20,000 bases of DNA from Chiloscyllium plagiosum (Eukaryota): contig NC_057719.1 of NCBI RefSeq assembly GCF_004010195.1, positions 35,895,852 to 35,915,851 of the forward strand. The letters run 5' to 3'. The notes beneath the pieces are model-generated. The model did no database searches. It was not told where the DNA came from and saw only the letters and a program-made list of their open reading frames with translations. Positions 1,061-20,000 of this stretch are shown in pieces. The number at the start of each line of letters is the position of its first letter. The stretch's first letter is position 1. The position numbers and the translations under genes are program-made.

Positions 1061-1170
1061 CACAGGATTCCTGATGAAGGGCTTTTGCCCAAAATGTCGA
1101 TTTTCCTGTTCCTTGGATGCTGCCTGACCTGTGCTTTTCCAGCGCCACTCTAATCTATACACAGGACTCC
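1061..1170 (+). mobile_element. Short Penelope-type repeat with decayed minimal hammerhead ribozyme; coordinates include the flanking direct repeats
   Basis: CTGATGA-A-GGGC-TTTT-GCCC-AAAATGTC (1071-1098), then the family body CTCCT(C/T)GGATGCTGCCTGACCTG-type sequence to CTTTTCCAGC. Flanked by CACAGGATTCC (1061-1071) and CACAGGACTCC (1160-1170). Confidence 0.8.
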
Positions 1171-1202
1171 CTCAACTAAGTGGTAAAATGAAACTCCATA
1201 TG

Positions 1203-1803
1203 CTACTCCTCAGCCCATTGGCCCATCTGATCAAGGTCCCTTTGTACTCTGAGGTAACCTTCTTCGCTGTCCACTACACCTCCAATTTTGGTGTCATCTG
1301 CAAATGTACTAACTATATGTCCTATGTTCACATCCAAATCATCTCTGTGAATGACAAAAAACAATGGACCCAGTACTGATCCTTGTGGCACTCCACTGGT
1401 CACAGGCTCCAGTCTGAAAAACAACCTCCACCACCACCCTTTGTCTTCTACCTTTTGAACCAGTTCTGTATCCAAATGGCTAGTTTTCTCTGTATTCCAT
1501 GTGATTTAACGTTGTTAACCAGTCTACCATAAGGAATCTTGTTGAACGCCTCACTGAAGTCCATGTAGATCACGTCCACTGCTCTGCTTTCATCAATGCT
1601 CTCGTTACTACTTCAAGAAAACCCAGTGAAGTTAGAGAGACATGACTTCCCATGCACAAAGACATGATGACTAACTCTAATCAGTCCATGCCTTTCCAAA
1701 TACATTAATATTCTGTCCCTCAGGATTCCTTCCAACAACTTGCCACCATTGGCATGGGCTCACTGGTCTCTAGTTCTCTGGTATTTCCTTACCACCTTTC
1801 TTA
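1203..1803 (-). mobile_element. CR1-clade LINE internal RT fragment
   Basis: Minus-strand ORF contains [19 protein letters not shown]...STFADDTKIGGVVDSEEGYLRVQRDLDQMGQWAEE. Further 5' it reads VDVIYMDFS (reverse complement of ctgaagtccatgtagatcacgtccac). Confidence 0.92.
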
Positions 1804-1806
1804 ATA

Positions 1807-1870
1807 TTTCCAGCCTTTTTCATCATAATTTCAGATCTCCAGTATCCACAGTACTTTGGTTTGGATTTCA
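1807..1870 (+). mobile_element. 3' tail fragment of the short Penelope-type repeat family
   Basis: TTTCCAGC...TTTCAGATCTCCAGTATCCACAGTACTTTG resembles the tails at 12858-12878 and 12235-12275. Confidence 0.5.
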
Positions 1871-2772
1871 GTCAGATTAATTATCGGTTTGATATGTCAC
1901 ATCTCGCAGTTTTACTTTAGAATAGAACATGGAAAGTGCTGGTAATATTTTTTCCAAACTGGAGGAGGTACAGCCAGGAAAAGTATTTGTATGGACCAAG
2001 GCTTTTGCTACTTCTGTCTGATGAATATAGTCTTGCAGAGTTCAACAATAAGTAATCATGAAATTGTTGTGAATTGGTAAAGATTTAATAAAGCTTTTAA
2101 GCATTCATTAACACAAAAATGTTAAATGTAACCAATTGAAGCTAATGTTATGTAGAATACAGTTCTAGGCACAGTAACAATTAATGTACTTCAGCTCAGC
2201 TTGCATTCAAAGTTATTTAGGATCATTAAATGAGCAATTATATTATCTATATTTTAAGTTTGGGTTTATTTTTAAAGCATGAAGACTCCCTGAGATGCTC
2301 TGCTTTTTAATATTTGCCGATGAATGTTGCAAAATAAACAGAAGGTTAATATTATAAGTATGTTCTGTTCCTTTTGGCAGTGGTTGTACTCTCAAGAATG
2401 TGAAAAAAAGAGATTGAAATTTCTCACAACAAACACAAGTTGAGTTGATCCTTATTATTGCCACTTTGTTTTCTAGTCATAAAGCTGACACCAATGGTGA
2501 GCTAAGTGTTTCGGTCTGACTCCAAAGAATGTCACTTTCCTCTGAAAAAGATAGAAGATGAAGTGCTTTGTTGTAAATGCTTCTGAAAATGAGTTTCCCT
2601 TCCTGTGGTAACTGCAGCTGTTGTTCTTAGGATGTTGATTACATCTGTTATGAAAATGGCTGTACACAATAATAAATATATTATGATAGGAGTATGACCT
2701 AATAACATCTCCATTTTCCCAAAGAAAAAAAATCATTTGGAAAAACTTACCCTTTGGAATTGGGTGAAAAAG

Positions 2773-2888
2773 CAAAGTACAGCAAATACTGGGAATTTGA
2801 ATAAAAACAGATCATGTTTGAAATATAAAACAGTTCAGGAATAATTTGTAAAGAGTTAATGTTTCAGGTTGATGGTCTTTCATCAGAA
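2773..2888 (-). mobile_element. Short Penelope-type repeat with decayed hammerhead motif (minus strand)
   Basis: Reverse complement of 2853-2888 reads TT-CTGATGA-A-AGACC-ATC-AACCT-GAAAC-ATT-AACTC. The rest of the interval is a degenerate family tail. Confidence 0.7.
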
Positions 2889-3486
2889 AGTATTAAGATC
2901 AGGTGCAATGCTGTATTTACAGTTTTCCCAGTTTTTCCTCTCTCCTGAGGTCCATAAAGCGCAACAATTGGGTGGGAGAAGGGAGGAAGGTGTGGGCTGT
3001 GAAGTTAGCATTTGACCTGATTGTGTGTTTCCTGCCTGACGAGTTAGATGAAAATTTTCCAACATTTTCAGGGGTTTGACGAATTGTGGAATACTTTGCA
3101 AGAAATATGTGTGTTAAAATGATGCACTCTGGATAACCAAAAAACTTGTCTTAACTTCACAGTATGTAGTTTTAAAATAAGTGACATTTGGTCTTGTACA
3201 TCTTCAACAGGATATTCAGACCAGGTTCCCTAAACCTACCACTATATTCAACCCTTTCCTTTACTTTTACTCTAACTCTTTCTCCATGTACTTTTCCCTT
3301 ATATCCCTTAGTCTAAGGCTACTGTATGTACTGTGTACTTGATAGTGTTTTCTGCAATGCCTCTGAGATTAGACTCTGTTTTGCAAACATGAATCCTTGA
3401 TTTATTGCAAAACCAGGAATTGCCATTGTAGCCATTGCTGTTAGATAAGAGACAACAGTAAATGAGTGCAATGATTCCCTTTCTGA

Positions 3487-3596
3487 AGTTCTGCAGAAAT
3501 ATCTAATATGACTCAAAACATTAACTCCATTTCTCTCTCCACAGATGCTTCCAGGCATGTTTATTTTTTCCAGAATTTTCTGTTTTTAATATCAGA
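3487..3596 (+). mobile_element. Short Penelope-type repeat, heavily decayed hammerhead motif
   Basis: AGTT-CTGCAGA...GACTC-AAAAC-ATT-AACTC, then ATTTCTCTCTCCACAGATGCT-CCAG...TTTTCTGTTTTT, which aligns by eye with 12157-12256. Confidence 0.7.
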
Positions 3597-6330
3597 ATCC
3601 CTTTTAGGATCCCTTGGACAGTAATATCAGCTGTTTCAAAACAAAGTCAAATTAAACAGTTGATCTGCCACACAGGATGTAATACATGTACCCATCATCA
3701 TACTCTGCACACTCTTAGCTGCATGGAAACAGAAATGAAACCAGATTGATTCTTTGTCATTGAGCTGAATGTAAGCAATGAAGTGAACAAATGCATGGCT
3801 CTTTCATGTAAAATAAAAATGGCAGGACGTATGGTTGTATAGCAAATGCCATCATTATTTTTCATTACTAGAATTACTAGAGCTGGATTCCATTTGCTAT
3901 AACCTACTTTAGGAACAAGAATAGGCCACTCAGCCCTTCAAGCCTGCTCTGCCATTCAATCAGATCATGGCTGACATGATTTTGAACTCCATTCCACATT
4001 CCTGCACATCCCTTTCATCCTATTGATAAGCAAGAATCCATTTATTTCTGCTTTAAAAACACTTAAAGATTTTTCATCTACTGTCTTTTAAGGAAGGGAA
4101 TTCCAAAGACTCAAAACCCTCAGAGAATTTTTCTTCTCTCTCCTTCGTCTTAAATGAGCAACGCTTTATTTTTAAACTTTGATCCCTAGGTTCTAGACTC
4201 TCCTTAAAAAAGGAAACATATATTTTTCACATCCACCTTGTTGAGCCCCCTCAGGATCTTACAGGTTTCAGTTAAGTTACTTCTGATGTTTCTGAACTCC
4301 ACAGAATACAGGTCAATCCTGTTTTGCTTTTCATCAGAAAGCAATCCTCTCATTCCAGGTATTAGTCTAGTAAACCTTCTCTGAAATGCATTCAATCAAT
4401 TACTATTCTTCTGTAAGTATGGTGACCTGTACTATACACATTACACCAAAAATGGTCTCACCATTGCCCTGTATAACTGAAGCATATCCCTCCTGCTCTT
4501 GCATTCAATTCCCTTGTAATTAAACATAACATTCTAATAGTTTTCCGGATTACTTGCTGCACCTGTATAACAACCTTCTGTGATTCATGCACTAGGACAC
4601 CCAGATCTCTCTGCAATTTCTCACCATTTAGATAATTGACAATTTCACATTTTCCCACATTGTGTTCCATTTTCATGATCCTTGCCCGCACACTTAACCT
4701 ACTTATATCCTCTCCACAGCTCACCTTCCTATCTATCTTTTGTCATCAGCAAAAGTAGCTGCCATACCTTTGGTCACTTCATCCAAATCCTTTATATAAA
4801 TTGTAAAGAGGTGAGGGCCCAACCACATGTGACAACTTGCCAGCCTAAAAAAAGACCCATTTATTCCTATTCTCTGCTTCCTGTTAGCCAGCCAATCTTT
4901 TATCCATGCAAATGTGTTACCGCCTGCACCAGCAGCTTTTGTTTTATGTTTTAACCTTTGATATGGCACTTTATCAAATGCCTTCTAGAAATCTAAGTAC
5001 AATACATCCACTGGTTCCTCTTTATCCACAGCACAAGTTACTTCTTCAAAGGACATCAATAAATTAATTAAACGTGCTTTCTGTTTGACTAAATTATTTT
5101 GGCTGTACCTTGAACATAACCAAGCACACTGTAATGAGACTTTAATAATAGCTTCTAACATTTTCCCTTTGTCAGATGTTAAGCTAACTGATCTGTCTTC
5201 TCCTGATTTCTGTCTCCCTATCTTTTTGAAAAAGAGTTACATTAGCTATTTTTCAATATAAAAGAGCCTTTCCCAAATCCAATGAGTTTTGGAAAATTAA
5301 AATGATGCATCAATTATCTGACCAGGTACCTTTTTTTAAGACCCTAGGATAAAATCCATCAGGACCCAGGGGCTTGTCAATTGTAGTCTCAAGAATTTAC
5401 TCCATACTACTTCCATGATAATTGTAATTTTCTTGAGTTGCTCCTACCTTCCAATTCTTGATTTATAGCTATTTCCAGGATGTTACTTGTATCAATTCAT
5501 CTGACATCTCTTTATCCTCCATTACTAATTCCCCAGAGTCATGTTCTATAGGACCAGATATATTTTGTAATTATTTTCTTTTTTAAGTATCTGAAGAAAC
5601 TTTTCCCATCTGTATTGATATTCTTGGCTAACTTTCTCTCATACTCTAAATTCTCTCTCCTTATTAATCTTCTAGTAGTTCTTTACTGTTTTCTACATTC
5701 TGTCTGATCTTCTGACAATTACATGTGTATTTTCTTTGAGTTTGATACTAGTCTTGATTTTTTAAAATAAACCACAGATGGTTGGTCCATCTCTTAGAAT
5801 TTTCTTATGTATTGGAATGTATCTTTCTGAGCTTCCTGGAATATTCCTTTAAATGTTTGCTACCATATCTCTAATGACCTATCCCTTAACCTAAATTGCC
5901 AACTCACTTTCAATTGCTCTGTTTTCTCATAACTGCCCTTAAATTTAAAATAGTAACTTTGGATCTACACCTACCCCCTAAACTGAAAGTAAAATTCAAT
6001 AATATTATGATTGCTACTACACAGGGATGCTTTTACTATGAGGTCAGTAATGAATCCTACCTCATTGGTCAAAACAGTCTTGTATAGTCTGCTGTCTGGT
6101 TGGTGACATAATGTTTGTTTAAAAAATTGTCTTGAAAACATTAATTTCTCATATAGACTTGGTTTTCCTCTCTGATTTTTCCAGTCTATATGTAGTTTAA
6201 AATTCCCCATGATAATTGCTGCAGTCTTCAGACAGACTCACATTATCCCTTCCTTGATACCCTTTCCTAGTTTGGTGCCTAGCTCCTCATACTGGCTATG
6301 CAGAACCTCATTCCTATCTATGCACAACTC

Positions 6331-6628
6331 AATAATGAGAGTCAAGCTTTCAAGATGAGAGGTGGAAAGTTTAAGGGGTATACACATGGAAAGTACTTCA
6401 CACAGAGGGTGGTGGGCATTTGGAACACGTTGCCAGCAGAGGTGGTAGAGGCAGGCATGGTAGATTCATTTAAGATGCGTCTGGACAAATGCATGAGTTG
6501 GTGGGGAGCAGAGGGATACAGATGCTTAAGAATTGACAACAGGTTTAGACCGGACATTTGGATTGGCTCAGGCTTGGAGGGCTGAAGGGCCTGTTCCTGG
6601 GCTGTAAATTTTCTTTGTTCTTTGTTCT
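6331..6628 (+). mobile_element. 5'-truncated CR1 3' end inserted in the opposite orientation into the older CR1
   Basis: FKMRGGKFKG...YFTQRVVGIWNTLP...FKMRLDK, followed by a 3'UTR ending in (TTCTTTG)n at 6611-6628. Short AACTC direct repeats at 6326-6330 and 6629-6633. Confidence 0.9.
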
Positions 6629-8065
6629 AACTCCTACAAGTGACTTCTTGCCTCTATAATTCCTCATCTCTACCCTGAGTGCTTCTACATTGTGGATTCT
6701 TGAATTAAGGCCATCCTTCCCGATCTTCCCTCACATCATTTTTAATTAACAGAGCGACTCCTCCATATGTTCTTAGCTTACTATCCTTTCTAAATAGCAC
6801 ATCCGATTCAATATTCAGATCACAATCTAGCTTATCCTGCAGCCCTGTCTTAGTTATGGTCACTAGATCATACCTATTTATTTCAATTTGTATTACTAGT
6901 TCATCTGTTTTGTTTGAATGCTATGTACGTTCAATACATTGCCTAAAGATTTGTCCCTTTGTTATTTTTGAGACTTTTGGTTTTATGTGCTGATTTGCTG
7001 TCTGATCTACATTCTCTGTCCCTTCCAGTTATTGTCCTGTAATTTCCTATATTAATTCCATCCTCTGTTGTATTATTCTTACTTTTTGATTCTTCATAAA
7101 TTTCCAAATTTGGGCCTCTGCCCTCACTATTTAGTTTAAAACCTGTTTTACTTCCCTAGTTACATGGTTTACAAGAATACCAGCCCACTAATGTTCAGAT
7201 AAATACCATCCCAATAGGACAGATCTCACTTTTCCCACTATTGGTACCAGAGCCCTATGAGCGAGAACCCACCTCTCCCATACTAGTCTTACAGCCACCT
7301 GCTCATCTCTCTAACTTTGCTTACCCTGTGCCAATTTGCACATAGTCCAGATAATAATCCAGATATTGTTACCCTTATTGTTCTGCTTCTTAACTAAGTG
7401 CTTAGCTCCTCATACTGGCTATGCAGAACCTCATTCCTAGTTCAATTCATGTCATTGATGCCTACATGGACTCTGACAATTGGCTCGTCCCCGCCTCCAT
7501 TCCCATTGCAAACAGTTCTCCAGACCAGTGCAGATATTCTAAACCCTGGCAATGGGCAGACAATGCAGCCTTCTGGACTTACACCATTCTCTGCAACAAA
7601 GTATGTGAAGTCCCCTGACTGAGCTGTCCCTACTACCATTTTATTTCTCTTGACTCCCTGATTGAATACCTTCATGTACCACAGTGCCATGAACATTTAG
7701 CTCATTCACCCCACACACCAGCCCCCGCTCTCATCCAAACAATCTGAGAGAACCCCACACCTGTTGGACAATTGCAGAGGCTGACACCCCTGCACTCCTG
7801 TCCTCTGGGTCCCCTTACCTGCAGTGATACCCTTCTGTCCCTGACCACTGACCACAGCAGAACATTCTATCCTAAGAGGTGTGACTTCCTCTTGGTACAA
7901 AGAATCCAGGTAACTTTCCCCCTCCTTGATGCTCAGCCTCCAACTCATAAACTATGAGCCAAAGCTGCTCCAACTTCAAACACTTATCATGGATATGTTT
8001 GCCTTGGACCACAATGGTATCCTGGAGTTCTCACATACTGCAACTTTTGACACACTATTGGAACT

Positions 8066-8205
8066 AGGAGAAAGTGAGGACTGTAGATGCTGGAGATCAG
8101 AGTCAAAAAGTGTGGCACTGGAAAAGTACAGTTCGAAATGTTGACTCTCCTGCTCCTCAGATGCTGCCTGACTTGCTGTGCTTTTCCAGTGCTACGCTTT
8201 TTGAC
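8066..8205. mobile_element. Short Penelope-type repeat with an inverted 5' arm; hammerhead core deleted
   Basis: Left part (AGGAGAAAGTGAGGACTGTAGATGCTGGAGATCAGAGTC...GGAAAAGTACAG) is the reverse complement of the family tail. Right part starts CGAAATGTTGACTCTCC. Flanks are ACTATTGGAACT (8054-8065) and ATTACTGGAACT (8206-8217). Confidence 0.85.
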
Positions 8206-9157
8206 ATTACTGGAACTGCCATTTTTAACAATTTGTTAATTAATTAGTTATGTTATTCACTTCTTTGTTTTGTTTTGTATGTACTATCTTAACTTTACAA
8301 CCAATATGTATATTATGTTAAAACATAAAAATAGAATAGTCTTTAACCAATTTAGCAGATACTCACCACACAGCCAGCTCCTTTTCCATGTAGTGAAGCA
8401 AGAAACAATTTCTATCAATCAGCTCTCTTCTTTAGTTCATGGATATTTCCCAAACCCACATACTTTGTTCTAACATCTTAGATGATTGGCTGTAAAAGTA
8501 CTTGCCAATACTTGCAAATCTGTTTGGTTATATTTTTGTTTTACTTAATTATATTTGATCTTAATAAGGTGCGTAATCACAGCTCTTCCTAAAATAAAGT
8601 GGAATCTCAGGATTCAGCCAGATCCTATAGAGCAGGTGCACATAATGTACACACATTTTCCAGTGATAAAATTAATACAATATAGTTTGCAATAGTTTAA
8701 AACCTCCAAATGTTCTTCATATTGAAGAAGTTTAACTACTTAGTTACAGTGACTGGGAATGATTTCCTGTAATGACAATCCAATCCTTTTCCCAATTGGA
8801 GCATAAAATGGGCCATTTAAAATCAATTTGTTTTAATAGTGATAGGATAAGAGTGACTGTCAACTCTGGCTTGAAGTGAAATGAATTTCTAGAAATCTGC
8901 CTGTTTACAGTTCCAGTTTTATTGATTGTGACTTTCTATCATTTAAATTTTATTAATAAAATTAACTTGTTATACATATTTAAGTTAATTAATGATTACC
9001 AAGATATTTCAGTGTAGCTTCTTTTATCTGAGTGTATTGTTAGGAAGATGAGGTACCATATGAAATTATTACCATAGGAGGTATGTCATTCATTTAGATA
9101 TTCCACATAAAAACTTTTTAAAAATACTTTCCTGTCAAAGATTATTTCCATTGAGAG

Positions 9158-9228
9158 GCTGAGTCATACAGTCCAGGAATGTCCTAGGTTTATTCTCTGG
9201 TTCTGCACTGAATTAACTGATATTATCT
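9158..9228 (+). mobile_element. Degenerate ancient tRNA-derived SINE head (AmnSINE2-like)
   Basis: GCTGAGTCATACAGTCCAGGAATGTCCTAGGTTTATTCTCTGG resembles, from memory, the CTGAGCCATACAGACCAGG..GTCCCAGGTTCAATCCCTGG head with a B-box. Not checked against a database. Confidence 0.45.
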
Positions 9229-11048
9229 GCTTTAGGAATTTAATTGCCCACCTCTGTTTACTTCATTGTAAAATAAAAAGTGCAAACTTTTATATTTAAT
9301 GTATATTAAATGATCTAACATGGCATTGCTTCCAGGGAATCAAACCCATGTGGAATTTAAATGATTTAATGTTAGAAGGTAGGGAATAATTGGGCTGGGT
9401 TTAGAGGAAACTCTGTGATACTAGACACTAGGAAGGTATAGTAGAGAAAGAAAAGTGGACAGTGCAGACAAAAGAAAAATGGGGAAAGTCAGTAATTGGG
9501 AGAGGAAAGAAAAACTATGGTTATAAAGGGTAGGGTTGGAAATTAGGTAGGGGAGAATGGCAATTGGAAATGTGGAGAAACTGAGCATATTTATAAGGAC
9601 CAATAGTTTAAGACTTTGTCGGGATATTGTTGCTTTGCTAAGAGTCAATAGAGCACTAGTGGCTGAAAAAGGTGAATCAATGACCACAATGAGATATGCA
9701 GCAGGGCTACATCCCAGGAGAAGAGACAACTTTGTGGGAATGAATGGCATTAACATTGTAAGCTTAGCAACAGAAATGAAATAAAAGGGGAAGGAAAGCC
9801 AATGAACTACAAATGGAGGCAGAGGAGGGTGGAAAGGAGAAAAGGGAAGAGCAGGGATGGGAAAAGTGAAGCGAAGGACAGAGAGGGAAAGGGAGAAGTA
9901 GACAACAGCAATGGAGTAGTAGAGTGTTGTGCAGAGGGAAGTGAATGGAGAAGACATTATTATTCAACTGTTAAATGACAAATTAATTGACAAAATATTG
10001 AATATGAAATAGAAATTAACCAGATGTATGGATTAGCAAGGTCAGGGATCAGCAATATATGAGCGTCTGAAAATGGGCTGTTGTAGCAATGACAAATGAA
10101 GCAAGGTCAAACTGAAACAGAAGTGTTTGAGAATAGATTTTGGAATTTTCTGAAAATGTAATGGGATGATGGCAACAGGCCACAAGATGACTGAGCAGGG
10201 ACGTAGACCTGAGTATTGGACTTAAAACACTGATCAGTAGAACTGTAATCCAGGCATATCTGTGAATGGACTGGCAACATACAAACAAATCATGTAGTAT
10301 TAGTAAATGATATCAAAGGTCTTTCGATTGGCTAATCAGTGGGTAAGTGGAAACCACCAGTCACAAGCACAGACCCACAAAGTTGCAAGCAGACCATTGC
10401 AACAGGAAGAGTTGAAAGGCACTATGGGTACAAATGTGAGGCCATAAATTGACACAAAAGAACAGTCAAAGACATATCTTTAAAATATTACATTTCTTAT
10501 GTATGTTTGCATTTCTTTCCCCTGATGTTATATTTCCATTCTAAAGTTAACTTCCACATTTCTGATGGAAACAGCTAATACAAACATCATGCTGTAATTA
10601 CATCCTGCTGTCATCGGTGGTGCTATAGTACCTCAGTTTTGCATCACTAGTAACTACAGGGAGGCTGCTCTGCTTCAACTAACTTCCTCTCACCTCCTCA
10701 ATCTGGCCTAAATCAGACTTGTTGCTCTTCATTCCTTGTGTGCAACGCCATATTAGTTTGTACACAATACAGAAATATTCAAAAGTTCAAATCTGGAGTT
10801 TAAAGCTAATCAGATTTTCATGAGAAAGCCACTTGCAAATGAGTTTAGGTGGTATTGGAACTGAGGGAGTGAATTATTTCACTAAATTCCACTTCCACCC
10901 TGCAGTGACCAAGTTGTTCAATGACACAGCACGACTATTTTACAACGCGATTAATACATTCACAAAGAGATTTTGATATCGAACTATCAATTCATTAAAA
11001 ACCAGCAGCAGAGGCGAAAAGGTAATCAGAGACGCAATTATTTTTCAG

Positions 11049-11149
11049 GTACGTACAGCTTTGGTCCGACCCCCCAGGAAAGCATGAGGTCAATTTTGGA
11101 CAGAGCATCTGAAGGATATATTGACTTTGCAGAAGGCCCGTACAAAAAG
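11049..11149 (+). CDS. Candidate internal coding exon of an unidentified gene (xTYSFGPTPQESMRSILDRASEGYIDFAEGPYKK)
   Basis: Acceptor TTATTTTTCAG|G and donor AAG|GTACGA bracket an open frame (phase 1 to phase 0). Non-repetitive, with locally retained CpGs in an otherwise CpG-poor region. Protein not recognised. Confidence 0.45.
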
Positions 11150-11268
11150 GTACGACTTTGAAGCTTAAATGTTGATGGCAGATTGCATAAAGTGGTATTC
11201 CCTCGCTTAAGGTCCTTGAGAGGTGATTTTATTAAGGTATTTTAAACGCATAAAGGATTTTTGGTAGA

Positions 11269-11602
11269 ATAGGTACACAGAAACTATTTGGTGACAGACG
11301 GATCAAGAGGACATCATCTTAAAATGAGAGTAAGGCTGTTCGAGAGAGAAGGAAACAAACCTTTAGAATCTTTCACAAAAAAAGGAATTCATTGCGACAG
11401 TTAGCTTTTTATTAGGAAAAGAATAGCGAACAACGGATAGGTACACAGAAACTATTTGGTGACAGACAGATCAAGAGGACATCATCTTAAAATGAGAGTA
11501 AGGCTGTTCGCGAGAGAAGGAAACAAACCTTTAGAATCTTTCACAAAAAAAGGAATTCATTGCGACAGTTAGCTTTTTATTAGGAAAAGAATAGCGAACA
11601 AC
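11269..11602. repeat. Tandem duplication, two copies, period 168 bp
   Basis: 11269-11434 and 11437-11602 differ at only two positions (GACG/GACA and CGAG/CGCG) and are separated by GG. Confidence 0.97.
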
Positions 11603-11667
11603 TGCATGAAAATAAAGTTGAAGTACAGATCAGTTCGAATCTATTTGAATGGTGAAATAATCTGATG

Positions 11668-11858
11668 TCGGAAGTGGGTACTGCAGATGCTGGAGACAAG
11701 AGTCAAGATTGGAGTGGTGCTGGAAAAGGACAGCAGGTCAGGCAGCGTCCGAGGAGCAGGAAGATCGACGACGAAGGGCTTTTGCCCGAAATGTTGATCT
11801 TCCTGCTCCTCGGATGCTGCCTGACCTGCTGTCCTTTTCCAGCACCACTCCAATCTTG
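11668..11858. mobile_element. Young inverted short Penelope-type element forming a 68-bp palindrome, with a 12-bp TSD
   Basis: Arms 11703-11770 and 11792-11859 are reverse complements with 3 differences. The loop holds GACGA-A-GGGC-TTTT-GCCC-GAAA. AATAATCTGATG is repeated at 11656-11667 and 11859-11870. Confidence 0.92.
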
Positions 11859-12091
11859 AATAATCTGATGGGCCGAATGACCTATTTTGTTTGTAACGTT
11901 CCAATTTTCATGAACAAATAGCAAGGCTTCACAACAGGAAATAAAGATCTGGCACACAGGAAACACATGCAGAGCTTGAAATGTAGAGTTTTTAACCTAT
12001 GTATGCAGTTTTTACTGATCAGTCTTAAAAACTGTGAATAGAGAATAAGATGATATGAAAGATGTGCCAAATCAAGTTAGGCATCTAAGTA

Positions 12092-12288
12092 CAAAAAAAT
12101 GGAAATTTCTGGAATGAGCTCAGCATTCTATCTATAGTGAGAAATCAGAGTTAGTTGAGTTCTGAGGAATGGCCACTTGACCCGAAACGTTAACTCTGAT
12201 TTCTCTCCACAAACGCTGCCAGACCTGCTGAGCTTTTCCAGCAATTTCTGTTTTTGATTAACAGCATCTGTAGTTCTTACAGTTTTAA
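12092..12288. mobile_element. Short Penelope-type element (second subfamily) with inverted 5' arm, hammerhead motif and TSD
   Basis: GAGAAATCAGAGTTA (12139-12153) is complementary to TAACTCTGATTTCTC (12191-12205). Flanks are TTAGGCATCTAAGTA (12077-12091) and TTAGATATCTAAGTA (12289-12303). Confidence 0.85.
12157..12196 (+). ncRNA. Minimal type I hammerhead ribozyme motif, best preserved core in the window (helix II weakened)
   Basis: GAGUU-CUGAGGA-A-UGGCC-ACUU-GACCC-GAAAC-GUU-AACUC. Perfect 5-bp helix I, intact CUGANGA and GAAA boxes, palindromic ACGU helix III, two mismatches in helix II. Confidence 0.7.
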
Positions 12289-12761
12289 TTAGATATCTAA
12301 GTATTTAGCATTGCTATATAGGGAGTGCGATTGAGCTTTGGCAATAGACTTGAATTTTGACAATAGGGTGGGGTAATTGTAGATTTTGACAGCATGGATG
12401 CACTCCTTTGATCTGGCATTACTGTGGAATGGGAGCCCCATGGTCAGTAATGTATAATTGGATAGAACTAGAAGATGTGGAATGTGGAGGCAGATTCCCT
12501 AATGGATTTCAAGCCAGCTATGAGAGGAGGCCATGGTGAGGTTCTTGCTTTCCACTCGGTGGGGATGAGGTGTCTTAGACCTGACAGCATTTGTTTTTTA
12601 CTCTGAAAGAAGTTTTTTCAAACATTTGTATTAGATATTTGTCATTGATTGTGGGAAGTTATATCTCCAAGTCAAATCCATCACTCCATGAGCCCAACTG
12701 ATAATTTTAAATTGATTTCCAGTTTAATTATTAATTCAATCTGGATAATTTAATCAACACA

Positions 12762-12891
12762 TTCTTGATGAAGAGCTTATGTCTGAAATGTTGATTCACC
12801 TGCTCCTCGGCTGCTGCCTGACCTGCTGTGCTTTTCCAGTGCCGCACTTTTCAACTCTGATCTCCAGCATCTGCAGTCCTCACTTTCTCCT
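12762..12891 (+). mobile_element. Short Penelope-type repeat with decayed hammerhead motif and complete tail
   Basis: TTC-TTGATGA-A-GAGC-TTAT-GTCT-GAAAT-GTT-GATTC, then CTGCTCCTCGG..GCTGCCTGACCTGCTGTGCTTTTCCAG...CTCCAGCATCTGCAGTCCTCACTTTCTCCT. Confidence 0.85.
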
Positions 12892-15307
12892 AATAGAAGA
12901 ATCACATCTAACATTGGACATGGTATTCAGAGGCTTGTAACCATAGGCATGATGATCATGTGGCTTGCTGTGATTTTGTTATTGGACAATATGTACTAAG
13001 TAATCTTTTTACTATGTTAAGGATTACATTAGAAACCAATTTAAGATTATCAGTAGGGTTCGCAGTGTGAAACATGTGTGTTTCCTAGAAGCAACATATA
13101 TTAACGCGTTAGCCCTGTTTTACAAATGACAAGGGAATGTGTACATATGCTACACCTTTTTCATTGAGGTAAGACTGTCAATCTCTGCAGCATTCTCATT
13201 GCAAAACTTTGATCAATCAGAGTTTACCTGCCTGGCCTGAAAATTTAAGATTTACAGTTAACTGTTCCTGCTGTATCTCCATGCCAACAATGGTTTGACT
13301 AATCATCGCTCTCTTCTCATGTTGTGCAGGTTGATAACCCCTTTTTAACTACCGAGCAATTAGTTCACTATTTCTTAAAAAAAACTCAGTTTGTTGATTC
13401 ATCAACAAACCTGCAAAATATTTTCATATTAATGTTCCCATTGCAAAATGTTTACTTATTTATATAGAACATTCTCATTTCTTGAGTAATTAACAGTTAT
13501 TCATTGTAATTTCTAATATGGCTTAAAGTGAACACAAGTGAATCAATTCTTTCAGCACAATATTCATTCAAAATGACCAGTTCACTAATTTGGAATATAT
13601 GTATAATTAATTTCTTTTAATTAAAGATCTATGTATTAATTGCATTTTCACATGCTAAGCATAGCTGCAAAATCTTATTAAATCGAGTTACATTCAAGGA
13701 GAAAAGCTAATTAGATTGTGTAGATTTACGCACTTTAATAATCTAATCTTTAATTGTGGTATGGAAATTTTAGGCTGGATTGTATCAGCCTGCTGTAGAT
13801 TGACTGGGAGGCAAGAGGTCTCATAAAATGATAGTAAAATTTATTGTAAGGGGAGTGAAACTTTGGCTGCATAACATCCCACTAACCAGAGGTGGCAGGC
13901 AATTAAAGGAATTAAGAGAGAACTGCCAGGTAAACTGTGAAAACATCAATGTGTAAATCTGGAGTGTGGTTGGGTCCTCCTTTATGGCTGTTCAGTGACC
14001 CGTGAAGGAGCTACCCTGCAGCTATGGCACCATTACAGGACAGGATGGTGGCGGGGGAGGTGAACTCCCCTGATGCCCTGGCACATAAATTTAAAAACCT
14101 CGCTGTTTAATGTGCCGCAACATGGAAGCTCCCTTCATCTTGCTGCAGCCCCAACAATGGTCATTTCCTTGTTTTGCCAATGTTGCTAAGCTGCTGGCTC
14201 TCTGACTGGGCTTGCATCTCTAGGAGGCAGACCTCAGTTAGATAACAGTCCTAGAAGCTGCCTCTTGATTAGCTGGTGCCAGCATAATGTCACCTGAGGT
14301 TCTGCTTATGCCTTCACAGGTTTGAGTCTTGCTATTGGTCCCAGTAAGGGGAATTTATCAGAGATAGTAACTCCGCTGGAATCTATTTAACAGTTATTTG
14401 ATTGATTATAATCAAAGAGTCACTTACAACTCAACTGATGTCACTCTCACCTCTGTATTATGTCAAGTAACCAGTTAGAGAGCATGCCATCTCAAACAGA
14501 TATTGTGTACTGAGAGAAGATTAATTAGCACATTGTGGTGTGAGATCTTTTGGGGAAGATTGACCATAACATGGCAGAATTCTTCATTAAGATGGAGAGT
14601 GACACAATTAAATCTGAAACCAGGGTCCTGAACTTAAAGAATTCAGTTGATGGTTTGAGGCATGCATTGGCTAGGATAAGCTGGCCAAGGATACTTAAAG
14701 GGTTGATGGTGAATAGGCATTGGCAGACATATAAAGAATACATGGATGAATTTCAACAATTCTACATCCCTATCTGGTGTTAAAATGAAACAGGGAAGGT
14801 GGCTCTATCATGGCTAACAAGGGAAATTAGGGATAGTGTTAAAGCCAATGGAGAGGCATATAAGTTGGCCAGAAAAAGCAGCCAACCTGAGGACTGGGAG
14901 AAATATAAAGTTTAGCGGAAGAGTGCAAAATGTTTAATTTTGAAGGGGCAAATAGAATATGAAAGTAAGCTTGCAGTCAACCTAAAAACTGACTGCAAAA
15001 GCTTCTGTAAATATGTAAAGAAAAAAAGACTGGTGAAGACAAATGTAGGTCCCATGCAATTAGAATCAGGTGAATTCATAATGGACAACAAAGAACTGGC
15101 AGACCAATTGAAAAAATACTTTGGATCTGCCTTCACTAAGGAGGACACAAATAACCTTAGGAAATGCTACGGGACAGAGGGTCAAGCATGGAGGAAGAAC
15201 TGAAGGGAATCCTTATTAGTAAGGAAATGGTATTGAGGAAATTGATGGGAGTGAAACCCGATAAGGCCCCAACGACTAATGCTCTTCTTCCCAGAGTACT
15301 TAAGGAG

Positions 15308-15900
15308 CAGATATTGAGTACAAGAGTTAGGAGGTCATGTTGCGCTGTACAGGACGTTGGTTAGACCACTGTTGGAATATTGCAATTTCCTATTGGAAAG
15401 ATATTGTGAAACTTGAAAGCGTTCAGAAAAGATTTACAAGGACGTTGCCAAGGTTTGAGGATTTGAGCTATAGGGAGAGGCTGAATAGGCTGGGGCTGTT
15501 TTCCCGGGAGCATCAGAGGCTGAGGGGTGACCTTATAGAGGTTTATAGAGGGGCATGGATAGGATAAATAGACAAAGTCTTTTCTCTGGGGCGGGGAAGT
15601 CCAGAACTAGAGGGCATAGGTTTAGGGTGAGAGGGGAAAGATATAAAAGAGACCTAAGGGGCAACTTTTTCACACAGAGAGTGGTACGTGAATGGAATGA
15701 CCTGCGGGAGGAAGTGATGGAGGCTGGTACAATTGCAACATTTAAAAGGCTTCTGGAAGAGTATATGAATAGGAGGGATTGAAAGGGATATGGGCCAGGT
15801 GCTGGCAGGTGGGACTAGATTGAGTTGGGATATCTGGTCGCCTTGGACTAGTTGGACTGAAGGGTCTGTTTCTGTGCTGTACATTTCTATGACTCTATGA
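15308..15900 (+). mobile_element. 5'-truncated CR1 3' fragment nested in the host CR1
   Basis: KDIVKLESVQKRFTRTLP...RLRGDLIEVY, RGHRFRVRGERYKRDLRGNFFTQRVV, and a 3'UTR ending TCTATGACTCTATGA. The host reading resumes immediately afterwards. Confidence 0.92.
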
Positions 15901-16993
15901 CTTGAAGAGGCGCTAGAAATAGCAGATGCATTGGTGATCATTTTTCAGCATTCTGTAGACTCTGGAAGCATTTCAATGGACTGGAGGGTAGCTAATGTAA
16001 AAAAGGGCAGGAAGTGAGAATATGGGAACTATTTGCTGGTTAGCCTGACATTGGTGGTGGAGAAAAATGCTGGAGTCAATTATTAACGATGTAATAACTG
16101 AGCATTTGGAAAGCAGTGACAGAATCAGTCCCGTTAGCATGGATTCACTAACAGGAAATTGTGCTCGACAGATCTTCTTCTGGAATTCTTTTGAGGATGT
16201 GGCCTGTAGAGTGGACAAATGTGAATCAGTAGATGTTGTTATCTCGACTTTCAAAAGGCTTTTGACAGGGTTCTACATTAGAGATTAGTAAGGAAAATTA
16301 AAACTCATGATATTGACATGAATAGAGAACTGGTTGGCAGACAGGAAGCAGAGAGTTGGAATAAATGGGTCCTTTTCAGAGTGGCAGGCAGTGATGAATG
16401 GGGTGCCACAGGGTTCAGTGCTGGAACCCCAGCTGTTTACAATATATGATTTGGAGGTGACGGTGTTGGACTGGGGTGTACAAAGTTAAAAAACACACAA
16501 CACCAGGTTATAGTCCAACAGGCTTATTTGGAAGCACTAGCTTTCAGAGCGCTGCTCCTTCAGGTGGTTGTGGAGTGTAAGACCGTAAGACACAGAATTA
16601 ATAGCAAAAGTTTACAGTGTGATGTAACAGAAATTATATAATCGGGAAAAGACCTGGATTATTTGTTAAGTCTCTCATCTTTTAGAATGGGTATGTTGGT
16701 TTCGGTGCTTTCATATGTAAATTCCAGAACTTTCTTAAAGTTAAATTTCATTTGAGAATGTAACAATAGTTGCAATACTGGCCCAGATAATGCATTGAAG
16801 GTGTGAGGTGCCCTGTATGAGGCTGTCTGTGCCCCAATGTTCAGACTGATTCTAATCCACAAAAGGGATTTACAGAATCTTGCATGGATTCATGCAGTTT
16901 TTGAACAAAATAAAATGTAACTCTGCAAGTACAAATTCGCCCCACAACGTTATATGTGTGGGCATGTGTGTCCGAGGTGGTATGAGTGTCTGA

Positions 16994-17144
16994 GTGTGTG
17001 TGTGTGTGTGTGTGTGTGTCTATACGTGTATGATTGTGAGTATAAAGGGGTATCAGTCTGTGAGAGGGTGTGTGTGGGAGTGTATGTGTCGGCCTGTGTA
17101 TGAGAGCTGGTCACTAAGTGTGTGTGTGTGTGTGTGTGTGTGTG
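16994..17144. repeat. (GT)n microsatellites (16994-17019, 17118-17144) in the PLE 3' region; complementary CA-rich tract at ~17808-18041
   Basis: Directly visible dinucleotide runs. Confidence 0.95.
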
Positions 17145-17408
17145 GTCCCGGTTGAGGCCATCCCCATGGATACCAAACTTGGCTGCCAGTGTCTGCTCAG
17201 CCACTTTGCGTTGTTGCCTGTCCCGAAGTCAGCCTCTGAGGATGATCACCTGAAGGTCCGAGGTCGAATGTTCCGGACCACTGAAGTGTTCTCCGACTGG
17301 GAGGGAACATTCCTGTCTGTTGATGGTTGTGCAGTGTCCATTCATCCGTTGCTGTAGCCTCTGCTTGGTCTCACCAATGTACCATGCCTCCGGGCATTCT
17401 TGCCTGCA
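17145..17408 (-). pseudogene. Second, inverted copy of the PLE GIY-YIG domain
   Basis: CRQECPEAWYIGETKQRLQQRMNGH...VGEHFSGPEHS, premature stop, then LAAKFGIHGDGLNRDH. Confidence 0.9.
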
Positions 17409-17410
17409 AA

Positions 17411-17797
17411 GTGTCAACATGGATACCAGCATTACATGTGGGGACACCTCCCACCATGTACGTGGCAGGTACTCGTGACTCATCCAACGTTGCCTATATC
17501 ATACGCTGCAGGCAAGGATGCCCTGAGGTATGGTACATTGGTGAGACCGAGCAGAGGCAACAGCAACGGATGAATGGACATCACACAACAATCACCAGAC
17601 AGGAGTGTTCCCTTCCACTTGGAGAACACTTCAGCGGTCCAGGACATTCGACCACAGACCTTCGGGTGATCGTCCTCCAAGGAGGACTTCGGGACAGGCA
17701 ACAACGAAAAGAGGCCAAACAAAGGCTGATAGCCAAGTTCGATACCCAAGAGGATGGCTTCAACCAGGACCATGGGTTCATGTCACACTACAGGTGA
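17411..17797 (+). pseudogene. PLE GIY-YIG endonuclease domain (C-terminal ORF remnant)
   Basis: DSSNVAYIIRCRQGCPEVWYIGETEQR...RMNGH...LGEHFSGPGHS...LIAKFDTQEDGFNQD-stop; frameshift near 17475. Confidence 0.9.
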
Positions 17798-18942
17798 CTC
17801 CACTGCACTACACACCCGCGCGCGCGCACACACACACTCTCCTACCGACCCATACACTCACGCAAACCCTCTCTCATACACAAGCTCTCTCTCATATGCT
17901 CCCACATACACTCGCACACGCTCACACGCACCCTCTCATAGACCTATACCCCTTTACACTCACATTCACACACATATACAGATACACACACACACACACT
18001 CACAGACACTCATACCTCCTTGAGCACACACACCCACACATATAACTTTGTGGGGTGAATTTGTACTTGCAGAATTACATTTTATTTTTCTCAAAAATTG
18101 CATGAGTCCATGTAAGAGTCTGTAAATCCCTTTTGTGGATCAGAATCAGTCTGAACATTGGGGCACAGACAGCCTCACACCTTCAATGCATTATCTGGGC
18201 CAACATGGCACCTATTGTTAAAGATCACTTGAGAAGGTTCTGGAATTTACATATGAAAGAACAGAAGCCAACATGCCCATTCTGAAAGATGAGAGACTTA
18301 ACAAACAATCCAGATCTTTTTTCGATTATATAACTTCAGTTAAATCACAGTGTAAACTTTTGCTATGAATTCTGTGTCCTACAATCTTATACTCCACAAG
18401 GAGCAGTGCTCCGAAAGGTCGTGCTTCCAAATAAACATGATGTTAATATATATTGTAAACCAATATGCCTGAAGGAATTGAATGCAATAACTCCAAACTT
18501 GCAGATGACACTAAGTTAGGTGGCAGTGTATGCTGTGAGGAGGATGCTAAAGGTCTACAGGGTGACTTGGACAGACTGGCTGAGTGGCAACTACTTGCCA
18601 AATGCAATATAATGTGGATAAATATAAAGTTTTTGTTGAGGCCACACCTTAAGTATGGTGTGCAGGTTTGGTCTCTAGTTTGAGGAAAGACACTCTTGCT
18701 ATTGAGGGAGTCCAGCGAAAGTTCACCAGACTGATTCCTGGGGTGGCAGGATTGACATATGAAGAATGTCTGAATCAACTGGGCTTTAGAAGGAATTTAG
18801 AAGAATGAGGGGAGATCTCATAGAAACATATAAAATCCTGATGGGACTAGACAGGCTAGTTGTGGGAAAAGTATTCCCAATGTTGGGGAAGTCCAAAACT
18901 AAGGGTCACTGTCTTAGAATAAAGGGTAAACCATTCAGAACT

Positions 18943-20000
18943 CTCCTTTTCACAGCAGAGAGCGGCGGGAGCTGGGCGGAAGTGAGGTTGGAGCGCAGAG
19001 CTGGTTGGGAAGATAAGTGTTTGATACTTGAGTGGGTGTGTTCTAGACCCCAGGCCCTACATAGTAGGGCCTCCCTCTCATCCTCCTCCTCTAACCTAAC
19101 TTTAAAGTCCACAGGAAAGCTACTCAGTGTTCTTGTTTTGGAGACGAAGTGTAGAGTAATGGCAGCGCAGGCAGTGGAATGTTCCTCCTGCAGGATGTTT
19201 GAGGTAGGGGTGACCACCAATACTCCTGCCGACTTCGTCTGCAGGAAATGCAGTCAGATCCTGCTCCTCACAGAACGAGTTAGGGAACTGGAACTGGAGT
19301 TGGATGAACTGAGGATTATTCGAGAGGCTGAGAGGGTGACAGATAGAAGCTACAGGGACATAGTTACGCCAGAGAACAGAGGTAGCTGGGTAACAGTTAG
19401 GGGTGGGAAGGGGAGGCAGCAGGTAGTGCAGGGATCCCCTGTGGTCATTCCCCTAAACAATAAGTATACCGCTTTGGATACTGTTGGGGGGGACGGCCTA
19501 GCAGGAGTAAGCTGCAGTGACCGGGTCTCTGGCACGAGGTCCGGCTCTGAGACTCAAGGGAAAGGGGGAGAGGAGGAGAGCGCTAGTTATAGGAGACTCT
19601 CTAGTTAGAGGGACGGACAGGCGGTTCTGTGGACATGGGCGAGACGCTCAGATGGTTTGTTGCCTCCCGGGTGCCAGGATCCGAGATGTCTCGGACCGTG
19701 TCTTCAGAATCCTTAAGGGGGAGGGTGTGCAGCCAGAAGTCGTGGTGCACATTGGCACCAATGACATAGGTAGGAAGAGGGGTGGGGAGATCATTCAAGA
19801 GTTAGGGAGTTAGGCTGGAAGCTAAAAGCTAGGACAGACAGAGTCGTCATCTCTGGGTTGTTGCCGGTGCCACGTGACAGTGAGGCAAAGAATAGGGAGA
19901 CAGTGCAGTTGAACACGTGGCTGCAAGGATGGTGTAGGAGGGAGGGCTTCAGATATTTGGACAATTGGACTGCATTCTGGGGAAGGTGGGACCTATACAA
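18943..20000 (+). mobile_element. 5' end of a younger, apparently 5'-complete CR1 (5'UTR plus ORF1) inserted in the host CR1; runs off the right edge
   Basis: Abrupt switch from host ORF2 (...KPFRT) to a GC/CpG-rich leader followed by ORF1 at 19159. Confidence 0.9.
19159..20000 (+). pseudogene. CR1 ORF1: CxxC..CxxC zinc finger, coiled coil, SGNH/GDSL esterase; two frameshifts (~19560, ~19803)
   Basis: MAAQAVECSSCRMFE...FVCRKCSQILLLTERVRELELELDELR; ALVIGDSLVRG; CCLPGA; VVVHIGTND; VVISGLLPVP; LNTWLQGWCRREGFRYLDNW. Confidence 0.92.

What the first reader, a model, noticed from the sequence alone, without database searches (positions are those of the whole stretch)
1061..18420. Dispersed family of tiny hammerhead-ribozyme retroelements alongside a Penelope-like candidate helper
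Seen: the layout CUGANGA-A-[helix II]-GAAAN-NUH recurs at 1071, 2853-2888 (minus), 3491, 11769, 12162, 12765, 16534-16567 (minus) and 18400. Helix II differs between subfamilies yet keeps pairing in the best copies (GGGC/GCCC at 1079-1090 and 11776-11787; GGAGC/GCTCC at 18400-18412). The helix III core switches between two palindromes, ACGT (12187-12190) and AGCT (16539-16542), which is covariation. Established: Penelope-like elements carry minimal type I hammerheads whose palindromic helix III implies dimeric cleavage. Inference: the 100-200 bp non-coding copies with TSDs are non-autonomous, retrozyme-like elements of at least two subfamilies mobilised by PLE RT/GIY-YIG. Their density (about 7 in 20 kb) suggests a very high genome-wide copy number. 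Every copy here has at least one damaging change.
Basis: partly seen in the sequence, partly recalled or inferred. Interest (0 to 1): 0.75.

Follow-up and report, generated by a model that had tools for sequence, protein, structure and literature searches.

The report
Penelope retroelement ends carrying hammerhead relics
The eight sites are real but worn copies of a small hammerhead ribozyme motif: two end the arms of a broken Penelope-like jumping gene and six are likely short end-pieces left by related elements, a pattern already described in animals, so this is ordinary apart from its abundance.

Summary
The motifs are real: three repeat families (A, B, C) in a shark-type genome. None of the 8 listed sites is intact. 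Majority letters of other genomic copies, checked at two of the sites, restore the core and helix II (137,236 contigs laid on those two inserts). Two sites (16534-16567, 18400) are not tiny non-coding elements: they end the two ~0.9-1 kb arms of one 5'-truncated, inverted, GIY-YIG-coding Penelope-like element (PLE) that lacks RT and cannot be the helper. They are not tandem and not cut-to-cut monomers, so they are not retrozymes as defined. Dispersed minimal hammerheads from truncated PLEs were described in 2014 (PMC4209133); a PLE origin of retrozymes in a 2026 preprint. This scan has reported the same families many times on other pieces of this genome. Open: no coding parent shown for A or B, and why 5' ends cluster at the ribozyme's front edge.

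The parts
1068..1159 (+). Family A single insert (A1): minimal hammerhead 1067-1103 with G12 changed, short-tail 3' end; TSD 1061-1071 / 1160-1170 (10 of 11, overlapping the element start)
2770..2891 (-). Family B single insert (B1): both boxes intact, helix II and palindrome decayed, long tail; no clear TSD; most diverged copy
3483..3594 (+). Family B single insert (B2): both boxes and helix II damaged, helix I 4 bp, short tail; possible TSD 3473-3482 / 3595-3604 (9 of 10, p=0.11)
8066..8204 (.).
11668..11858 (.). Family A head-to-head insert (A3): minus arm 11668-11770 with long tail, beginning 3 nt before the predicted cut site; plus arm 11770-11858 with hammerhead lacking C3/U4 and short tail; exact 12-bp TSD 11656-11667 / 11859-11870
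12092..12288 (.). Family B head-to-head insert (B3): minus arm 12092-12153 with short tail, beginning at the predicted cut site; plus arm 12157-12288 with both boxes, 5-bp helix I, ACGT palindrome, damaged helix II and long tail; TSD 12077-12091 / 12289-12303 (13 of 15); also present in related organism B
12761..12892 (+). Family A single insert (A4): hammerhead with six changes from the majority letters, long tail (tail module 12857-12891); no clear TSD; flank joined to it in organism B as well
16453..17400 (-). Left arm of an inverted, 5'-truncated Penelope-like element (family C): GIY-YIG C-terminal part with an internal stop and a deletion, (CA)n 3' UTR, hammerhead at 16533-16570 with shortened first box, long tail
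17401..18445 (+). Right arm of the same element: linker end and GIY-YIG domain (17400-17797, one frameshift near 17473), 3' UTR, hammerhead remnant 18396-18425 without CUGANGA, tail missing

Best explanation
These sites are decayed minimal type I hammerhead motifs in three dispersed repeat families: family C ends two truncated GIY-YIG-coding Penelope-like arms, and families A and B are likely the extremely 5'-truncated end modules (pLTR plus optional tail) of related Penelope-like elements, likely inserted by those elements' own RT and endonuclease and now fixed and inactive. Inferred mechanism: the PLE protein nicks AT-rich DNA and starts reverse transcription inside the RNA at one of two sites about 60 and 95 nt past the predicted cut site (short and long tail). 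Copying usually ends at the front edge of the uncut ribozyme. When both target strands are primed, two arms join head to head inside one TSD, one with the tail and one without. Shown here: family structure, TSDs, tail module, inverted arms, intact majority letters at two sites, high abundance, presence of B3 and A4 in a related organism. Inferred: a coding parent for A and B, the priming steps, and dimeric or protein-assisted cleavage in the parent RNA.
For: C arms are 86% identical (729 of 844) and encode a GIY-YIG 65-83% identical to 21 proteins, 18 of them named from sharks. Other copies restore the motif at A4 (12765 in 85% of laid depth in X1) and helix II at B3 (84% and 91%). Fixed 3' end at 12890-12892 with unrelated flanks (loose-end agreement 0.32-0.37 in the DNA runs) and back-joints of 33 and 35 nt to 12857 define a tail module, matching the optional 30-40 bp PLE tail (PMC8557442, PMC3846280, PMC11167929). 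4 of 8 insertions are head-to-head with the tail on one end only, the arrangement described in those papers. TSDs at p<=0.05 in 4 of 8 (binomial 0.0004; boundaries set by eye). Control in other hosts: 13 of 118 metagenome loci with the same core motif have PLE-like protein matches upstream on the same strand, and in one family with coding members 20 of 30 copies share <=25 nt upstream of the core and 9 of 30 have an inverted partner.
Against: No coding parent was found for A or B: one search did not list loose ends upstream of the ribozyme, a protein search with the A frame found nothing, and pattern scans of genome and viral collections were empty. 6 of 7 main arms start between 8 nt upstream and 2 nt downstream of C3, tighter than random truncation would give and also expected of a short master RNA. 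In the control family some short upstream extents may reflect subfamily divergence, and some loci may be the same site in different samples. Pfam GIY-YIG matches are below the curated cut-off. No activity was measured.
Confidence: 0.72

Rival explanations
1. Families A and B are independent non-autonomous mini-elements: a short RNA that starts at the ribozyme's 5' helix and ends in the tail is transcribed from master loci and mobilised in trans by a PLE protein, much as SINEs use LINEs.
For: 5' ends cluster at the front edge of helix I in 6 of 7 main arms; 7 short inserts in 20 kb and no long A or B copy in the window; pLTR sequence sufficed for mobilisation in trans in a rotifer (PMC3846280).
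Against: 5' ends vary by about 10 nt and inverted arms begin at four different depths; a family with coding members in other hosts shows the same clustering plus a continuum out to 956 nt; no promoter or diagnostic 5' sequence precedes the ribozyme; RNA reads show no pile-up of starts or ends (table 6; a polyA single-cell library, so a weak test).
Confidence: 0.2
2. They are monomer offspring of non-LTR retrozymes: tandem units cut by dimeric hammerheads, circularised and reinserted.
For: Type I minimal hammerhead, small size, long TSDs; the 2026 preprint reports retrozymes with dispersed monomers in one chondrichthyan and relates them to pLTRs.
Against: No tandem unit with a hammerhead in the window; inserts carry the uncut ribozyme at their 5' end, not a cut-to-cut permutation; no whole-unit back-joint among the 15 best joints shown (434 not shown; contigs collapse tandems); the motifs are the minimal PLE type, which PMC7229834 separates from canonical retrozyme motifs.
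Confidence: 0.05
3. The palindromic inserts are MITE-like DNA elements and the hammerhead likeness is incidental or chance.
For: A3 has 67-nt arms, 97% complementary, within a TSD; Rfam and the descriptor give little signal.
Against: The arms are unequal and their outer ends differ by the tail; single-arm copies exist; majority letters restore the conserved core; the same core in other hosts pairs helix I in 61 of 82 distinct contexts against 23 for shuffled partners (max 31).
Confidence: 0.03

Closest known systems
[quoted passage not shown]
   Same: Type I core without helix III, extra nucleotide after A9, G10.1-C11.1 pair, palindromic 15.2-16.2, several consensus families per genome, mostly single dispersed motifs attributed to truncated PLEs, opposite-strand pairs.
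   Different: Shark names were not found in the searched supplement files (file 1 not searched); abundance here appears far above the 4,000-9,000 motifs reported for coelacanth and Xenopus, though counted differently.
EN+ PLE insertion units: inverted 5'-truncated copy, 30-40 bp tail on one end, TSD (PMC8557442, PMC3846280); Neptune clade for family C
   Same: Head-to-head arms, tail on one end only, TSDs of about 10-15 bp, C-terminal GIY-YIG; homologues of C carry a CxxxxCxxC linker, the motif described for Neptune and Nematis.
   Different: A and B units are only 90-200 bp; parent not identified; clade of C not tested by a tree.
Poseidon element PAc of Anolis (PMC11167929)
   Same: Two internal RT start sites giving the tail; both target strands cut and extended; uncut RNA is the main template; AT-rich targets.
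   Different: In PAc the ORF starts inside the ribozyme; no such ORF was found for A. No biochemistry here.
Non-LTR retrozymes (PMC7229834; bioRxiv 10.64898/2026.07.22.740005)
   Same: Non-coding, type I hammerhead, pLTR-related, TSDs longer than 4 bp.
   Different: Defined as tandem repeats with circular RNA intermediates; here dispersed single or inverted units with minimal motifs.

Membership tests
PLE minimal hammerhead (min-HHR) | CUGANGA and GAAA boxes, extra base after A9, helix II, NUH | tested here: met
   Met at family level for A and B by majority letters of other copies at A4 and B3; 0 of 8 window sites intact; family C not tested beyond its two damaged copies
PLE minimal hammerhead (min-HHR) | Palindromic core in place of helix III | tested here: met
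   ACGT at 12187-12190, AGCT at 16539-16542; majority letter at 12789 restores it in RNA reads (699 of 823) but in only 36-44% of DNA depth
PLE minimal hammerhead (min-HHR) | Self-cleavage as a dimer or with protein help | not testable with these tools
   No pile-up of RNA ends in run X21, a weak test; folds of 8 single sites gave no full hammerhead
EN+ Penelope-like element (family C) | C-terminal GIY-YIG endonuclease upstream of the ribozyme-bearing end | tested here: met
   21 homologues, best E 3e-47; Pfam GIY-YIG only below cut-off
EN+ Penelope-like element (family C) | RT domain in the same ORF | tested here: not met
   Both arms start after the linker; 5'-truncated copy
EN+ Penelope-like element (families A, B) | End module joined to an RT/GIY-YIG ORF in some copies | tested here: inconclusive
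   No genome held; searches gave no such copy
EN+ Penelope-like element (families A, B) | Optional 30-40 bp tail, present on one end of inverted insertions | tested here: met
   33-35 nt module; 3 of 3 short inverted inserts have it on one arm
EN+ Penelope-like element (families A, B) | Target-site duplication | tested here: met
   4 of 7 short inserts at p<=0.05, 1 at 0.11, 2 none
Non-LTR retrozyme | Tandem units each with a hammerhead | tested here: not met
   None in the window; none among the joints shown; whole genome not searchable
Non-LTR retrozyme | Circular RNA monomers | tested here: inconclusive
   One polyA run with 3,909 laid reads showed no such joint among those listed; the second run laid 0
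Rfam hammerhead families | Match to a covariance model | tested here: not met
   No hammerhead among 16 matches at E<=10

The most novel reading that the evidence does not exclude
Families A and B come from a discrete ~130-nt RNA that begins exactly at the hammerhead's 5' helix and is copied uncut by a Penelope-type dimer priming both target strands at two fixed start sites, so the genome holds on the order of 10^5 footprints of a ribozyme-headed, SINE-like parasite of PLEs, in which the ribozyme fold marks the template boundary instead of cutting it.
Probability: 0.2. Interest if true: 0.45.

Novelty: new member of a known kind. Interest (0 to 1): 0.15.

Why it matters
As it stands it adds shark examples to a known class. 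Its practical value is the sample size: very many short insertions with TSDs, two tail lengths and inverted arms could be used to test how PLEs prime, end and join their cDNA, and what the hammerhead does, which the papers read here still call unclear (PMC8557442, PMC11167929). If a discrete short master RNA exists it would be a SINE-like partner of PLEs in a vertebrate.

Tried and rejected
Whole-genome search: no genome held. Rfam at E<=10: only microRNA-type hairpin and other weak matches below gathering score, no hammerhead. Strict descriptor: 0 hits without mismatch. Folding 8 single sites: helix II forms in 2 of 8, z from -2.55 to +1.62; not informative for a dimer-type motif. Pattern scans for shark copies: 0 in viral contigs and 0 in genome contigs. 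The metagenome scan returned 118 loci with the core motif but none with A or B tail similarity at E<=1e-3, so it served only as a control. Protein search with the 44-codon open frame of A4: nothing. Sequencing runs: no RNA holder listed; X22 laid 0 reads. Earlier notes by sequence and near this place: none. PMC5785218 was not held. In one search the rows for B1, B2, A2R and the A2 TSD used wrong offsets and were redone. Rejected: neighbouring element as helper; MITE; classical retrozyme monomer; treating the seven other 3-mismatch descriptor hits as further members (they lie outside the repeat families).
Full report
Setting. The window is repeat-rich animal DNA. The GIY-YIG fragment at 17474-17794 finds 21 proteins at 65-83% identity, 18 of them named from sharks, so the host is shark-type. 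No whole genome was held.

Observation. Site by site: CUGANGA is intact in 3 of 8, GAAA in 6 of 8, both in 2 of 8, the palindromic core in 2 of 8, and everything together in 0 of 8. The 18400 site has lost its first box by a 9-nt deletion relative to its sister arm. Rfam reports no hammerhead among 16 matches at E<=10, and a descriptor finds 2 sites at <=2 mismatches against 0.17 in shuffles, max 2 of 30 shuffles. The motif call therefore rests on family evidence, not on any single copy.

Anatomy. Local alignments against shuffled controls give three families and eight insertion events. Family B: 2770-2891 (minus), 3483-3594, 12092-12288. A and B share part of their downstream sequence; family C aligns to neither. 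Family C is one element at 16453-18445 made of two inverted arms, 86% identical (729 of 844), each a GIY-YIG end, a (CA)-rich 3' UTR and a hammerhead. The right arm has a frameshift, the left a stop and a deletion, and neither has RT. Homologues carry a CxxxxCxxC linker, which PMC8557442 describes for Neptune and Nematis; I built no tree.

Insertion signatures. The best flanking direct repeats score at p<=0.05 against 400 random position pairs for 4 of 8 events (A3 12 of 12, B3 13 of 15, A1 10 of 11, A2 8 of 8 with an adjacent 11 of 13), p=0.11 for B2 and C, and nothing for B1 and A4. Boundaries were set by eye, so the joint 0.0004 is optimistic. Four of 8 events (A2, A3, B3, C) are head-to-head pairs, the three short ones inside one TSD pair. 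In all three one arm ends about 30-35 nt later than the other (A short arms map to 12854 and 12859 in A4 coordinates, long arms to 12892 and 12894; B short arm 12256 against 12288). In C only the left arm has the tail, but its right end is disturbed. Six of 7 main arms begin between 8 nt upstream and 2 nt downstream of C3; for A4 and B1 this rests on loss of similarity only. The inverted arms begin at the predicted cut site (B3), 3 nt before it (A3) and about 33 nt after it (A2), so they do not consistently mark cleavage.

Family evidence from public runs (window 12000-12980, likeness 80). 137,236 contigs of 23.6 million read from run X1 and 118,908 from X14 (related organism B) lie on the two inserts. 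Summed depth is 10^5-10^7 on them against 6-50 on most flank bins; the tool warns that this is no copy number, but it shows a very abundant family. Majority letters in X1 restore C3 at 12765 (85% of depth) and pairing in helix II of B3 (84% at 12170, 91% at 12173). Several CpG-type positions of A4 are restored in only 22-49% of X1 depth but in 77-88% of RNA reads; 70 further rows were not shown. Loose ends behind 12890-12892 have low agreement (0.32-0.37 in DNA), a fixed 3' end on varied flanks. Joints going back 33 and 35 nt to 12857 appear in both DNA runs and mark the tail as a module. Contigs of organism B run from the flanks into both B3 and A4, so both predate the split and are old. Run X21 laid 3,909 reads on both strands with no pile-up of starts or ends; X22 laid none. 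Loose ends upstream of the ribozyme were not among the 18 rows shown (1,194 not shown), so the link of A and B to a coding parent stays open; searches did not close it.

Control from other hosts. The core motif matched 118 metagenome loci, none with A or B tails. 13 of 118 have matches to shark PLE proteins, all upstream on the same strand (38 loci hold at most 300 nt of flank, and some loci may repeat one site). Helix I, which was not in the pattern, pairs for >=3 bp in 61 of 82 distinct contexts against a mean of 23 with shuffled partners. In one family with coding members, 20 of 30 copies share <=25 nt upstream of the core with a coding copy, 8 share 55-956 nt, 2 could not be anchored, and 9 of 30 have an inverted partner (two pairs counted from both sides). 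Families with coding members thus yield the same stubs and fold-backs.

Mechanism. Most likely (0.72) these are end modules copied from PLE RNA by the element's own protein. PMC11167929 (parts 1-2 of 4 read) shows for the anole element two internal RT start sites that produce the tail, cutting and extension of both strands, uncut RNA as the main template and no RNA-seq ends at the cut site. That fits the two tail lengths, the inverted pairs and the uncut ribozyme at the 5' end; applying it here is inference. The clustering of 5' ends is unexplained: it may be the start of the template RNA, an RT stop at the folded ribozyme, or a short master RNA (rival, 0.2).

Prior description. PMC4209133 (parts 1-2 of 4 read; two supplement files searched, file 1 not) describes these motifs, their families, their mostly single dispersed occurrence as probable truncated PLEs, and opposite-strand pairs. 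PMC8557442 and PMC3846280 (passages) describe inverted truncated copies, the tail on one end, TSDs and solo pLTRs. The preprint 10.64898/2026.07.22.740005 (parts 1-3 of 5; supplements not seen and may list these families) derives tandem retrozymes from pLTRs and includes one chondrichthyan. PMC7229834, PMC6765202 and PMC6155905 were seen as passages. The paper on dimeric cleavage (PMC5785218) was not held and is known to me only through. Six literature searches listed no paper devoted to these shark families; Dfam and Repbase could not be checked. The scan's own notes hold 156 entries for 'hammerhead Penelope' on other pieces of this genome with the same reading; they are not independent support.

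Verdict. Real, abundant, of a known kind. Interest 0.15.

Noticed in passing
window:16432-16450 and 18443-18462: Both arms of the family C element are followed, each in its own orientation, by the same 13-nt AT-rich target sequence, so the right flank holds an inverted copy of the left flank in place of the right arm's tail.
   Followed up: partly
window:12254-12256 and 12886-12892 (joints): About 200 contigs per DNA run join a family B body at its T-rich stretch to the end of a family A tail on the opposite strand, suggesting that A inserts preferentially into B copies.
   Followed up: no
window:12774-12792: RNA reads carry the intact ribozyme letters more often (77-88%) than DNA contigs (22-49%); this may mean transcribed copies are younger, or be an alignment bias of short contigs.
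   Followed up: no
window:11269-11602: Near-perfect tandem duplication of 168 bp (99%) with no hammerhead; recent duplication or assembly artefact.
   Followed up: no
window:12761-12892: A4 has a 44-codon frame without a stop starting in the ribozyme; no protein match.
   Followed up: yes
window:1-1010, 1192-1720, 3900-6000, 14600-16450, 18460-20000: Most of the rest of the window looks like fragments of CR1-type LINEs (recognised from recall and mutual similarity); 19511-19813 has a weak GDSL-lipase match typical of their ORF1.
   Followed up: no
L007, L048, L054, L112: Head-to-head fold-back stubs of the same kind occur in a hammerhead family from other hosts' metagenomes.
   Followed up: partly
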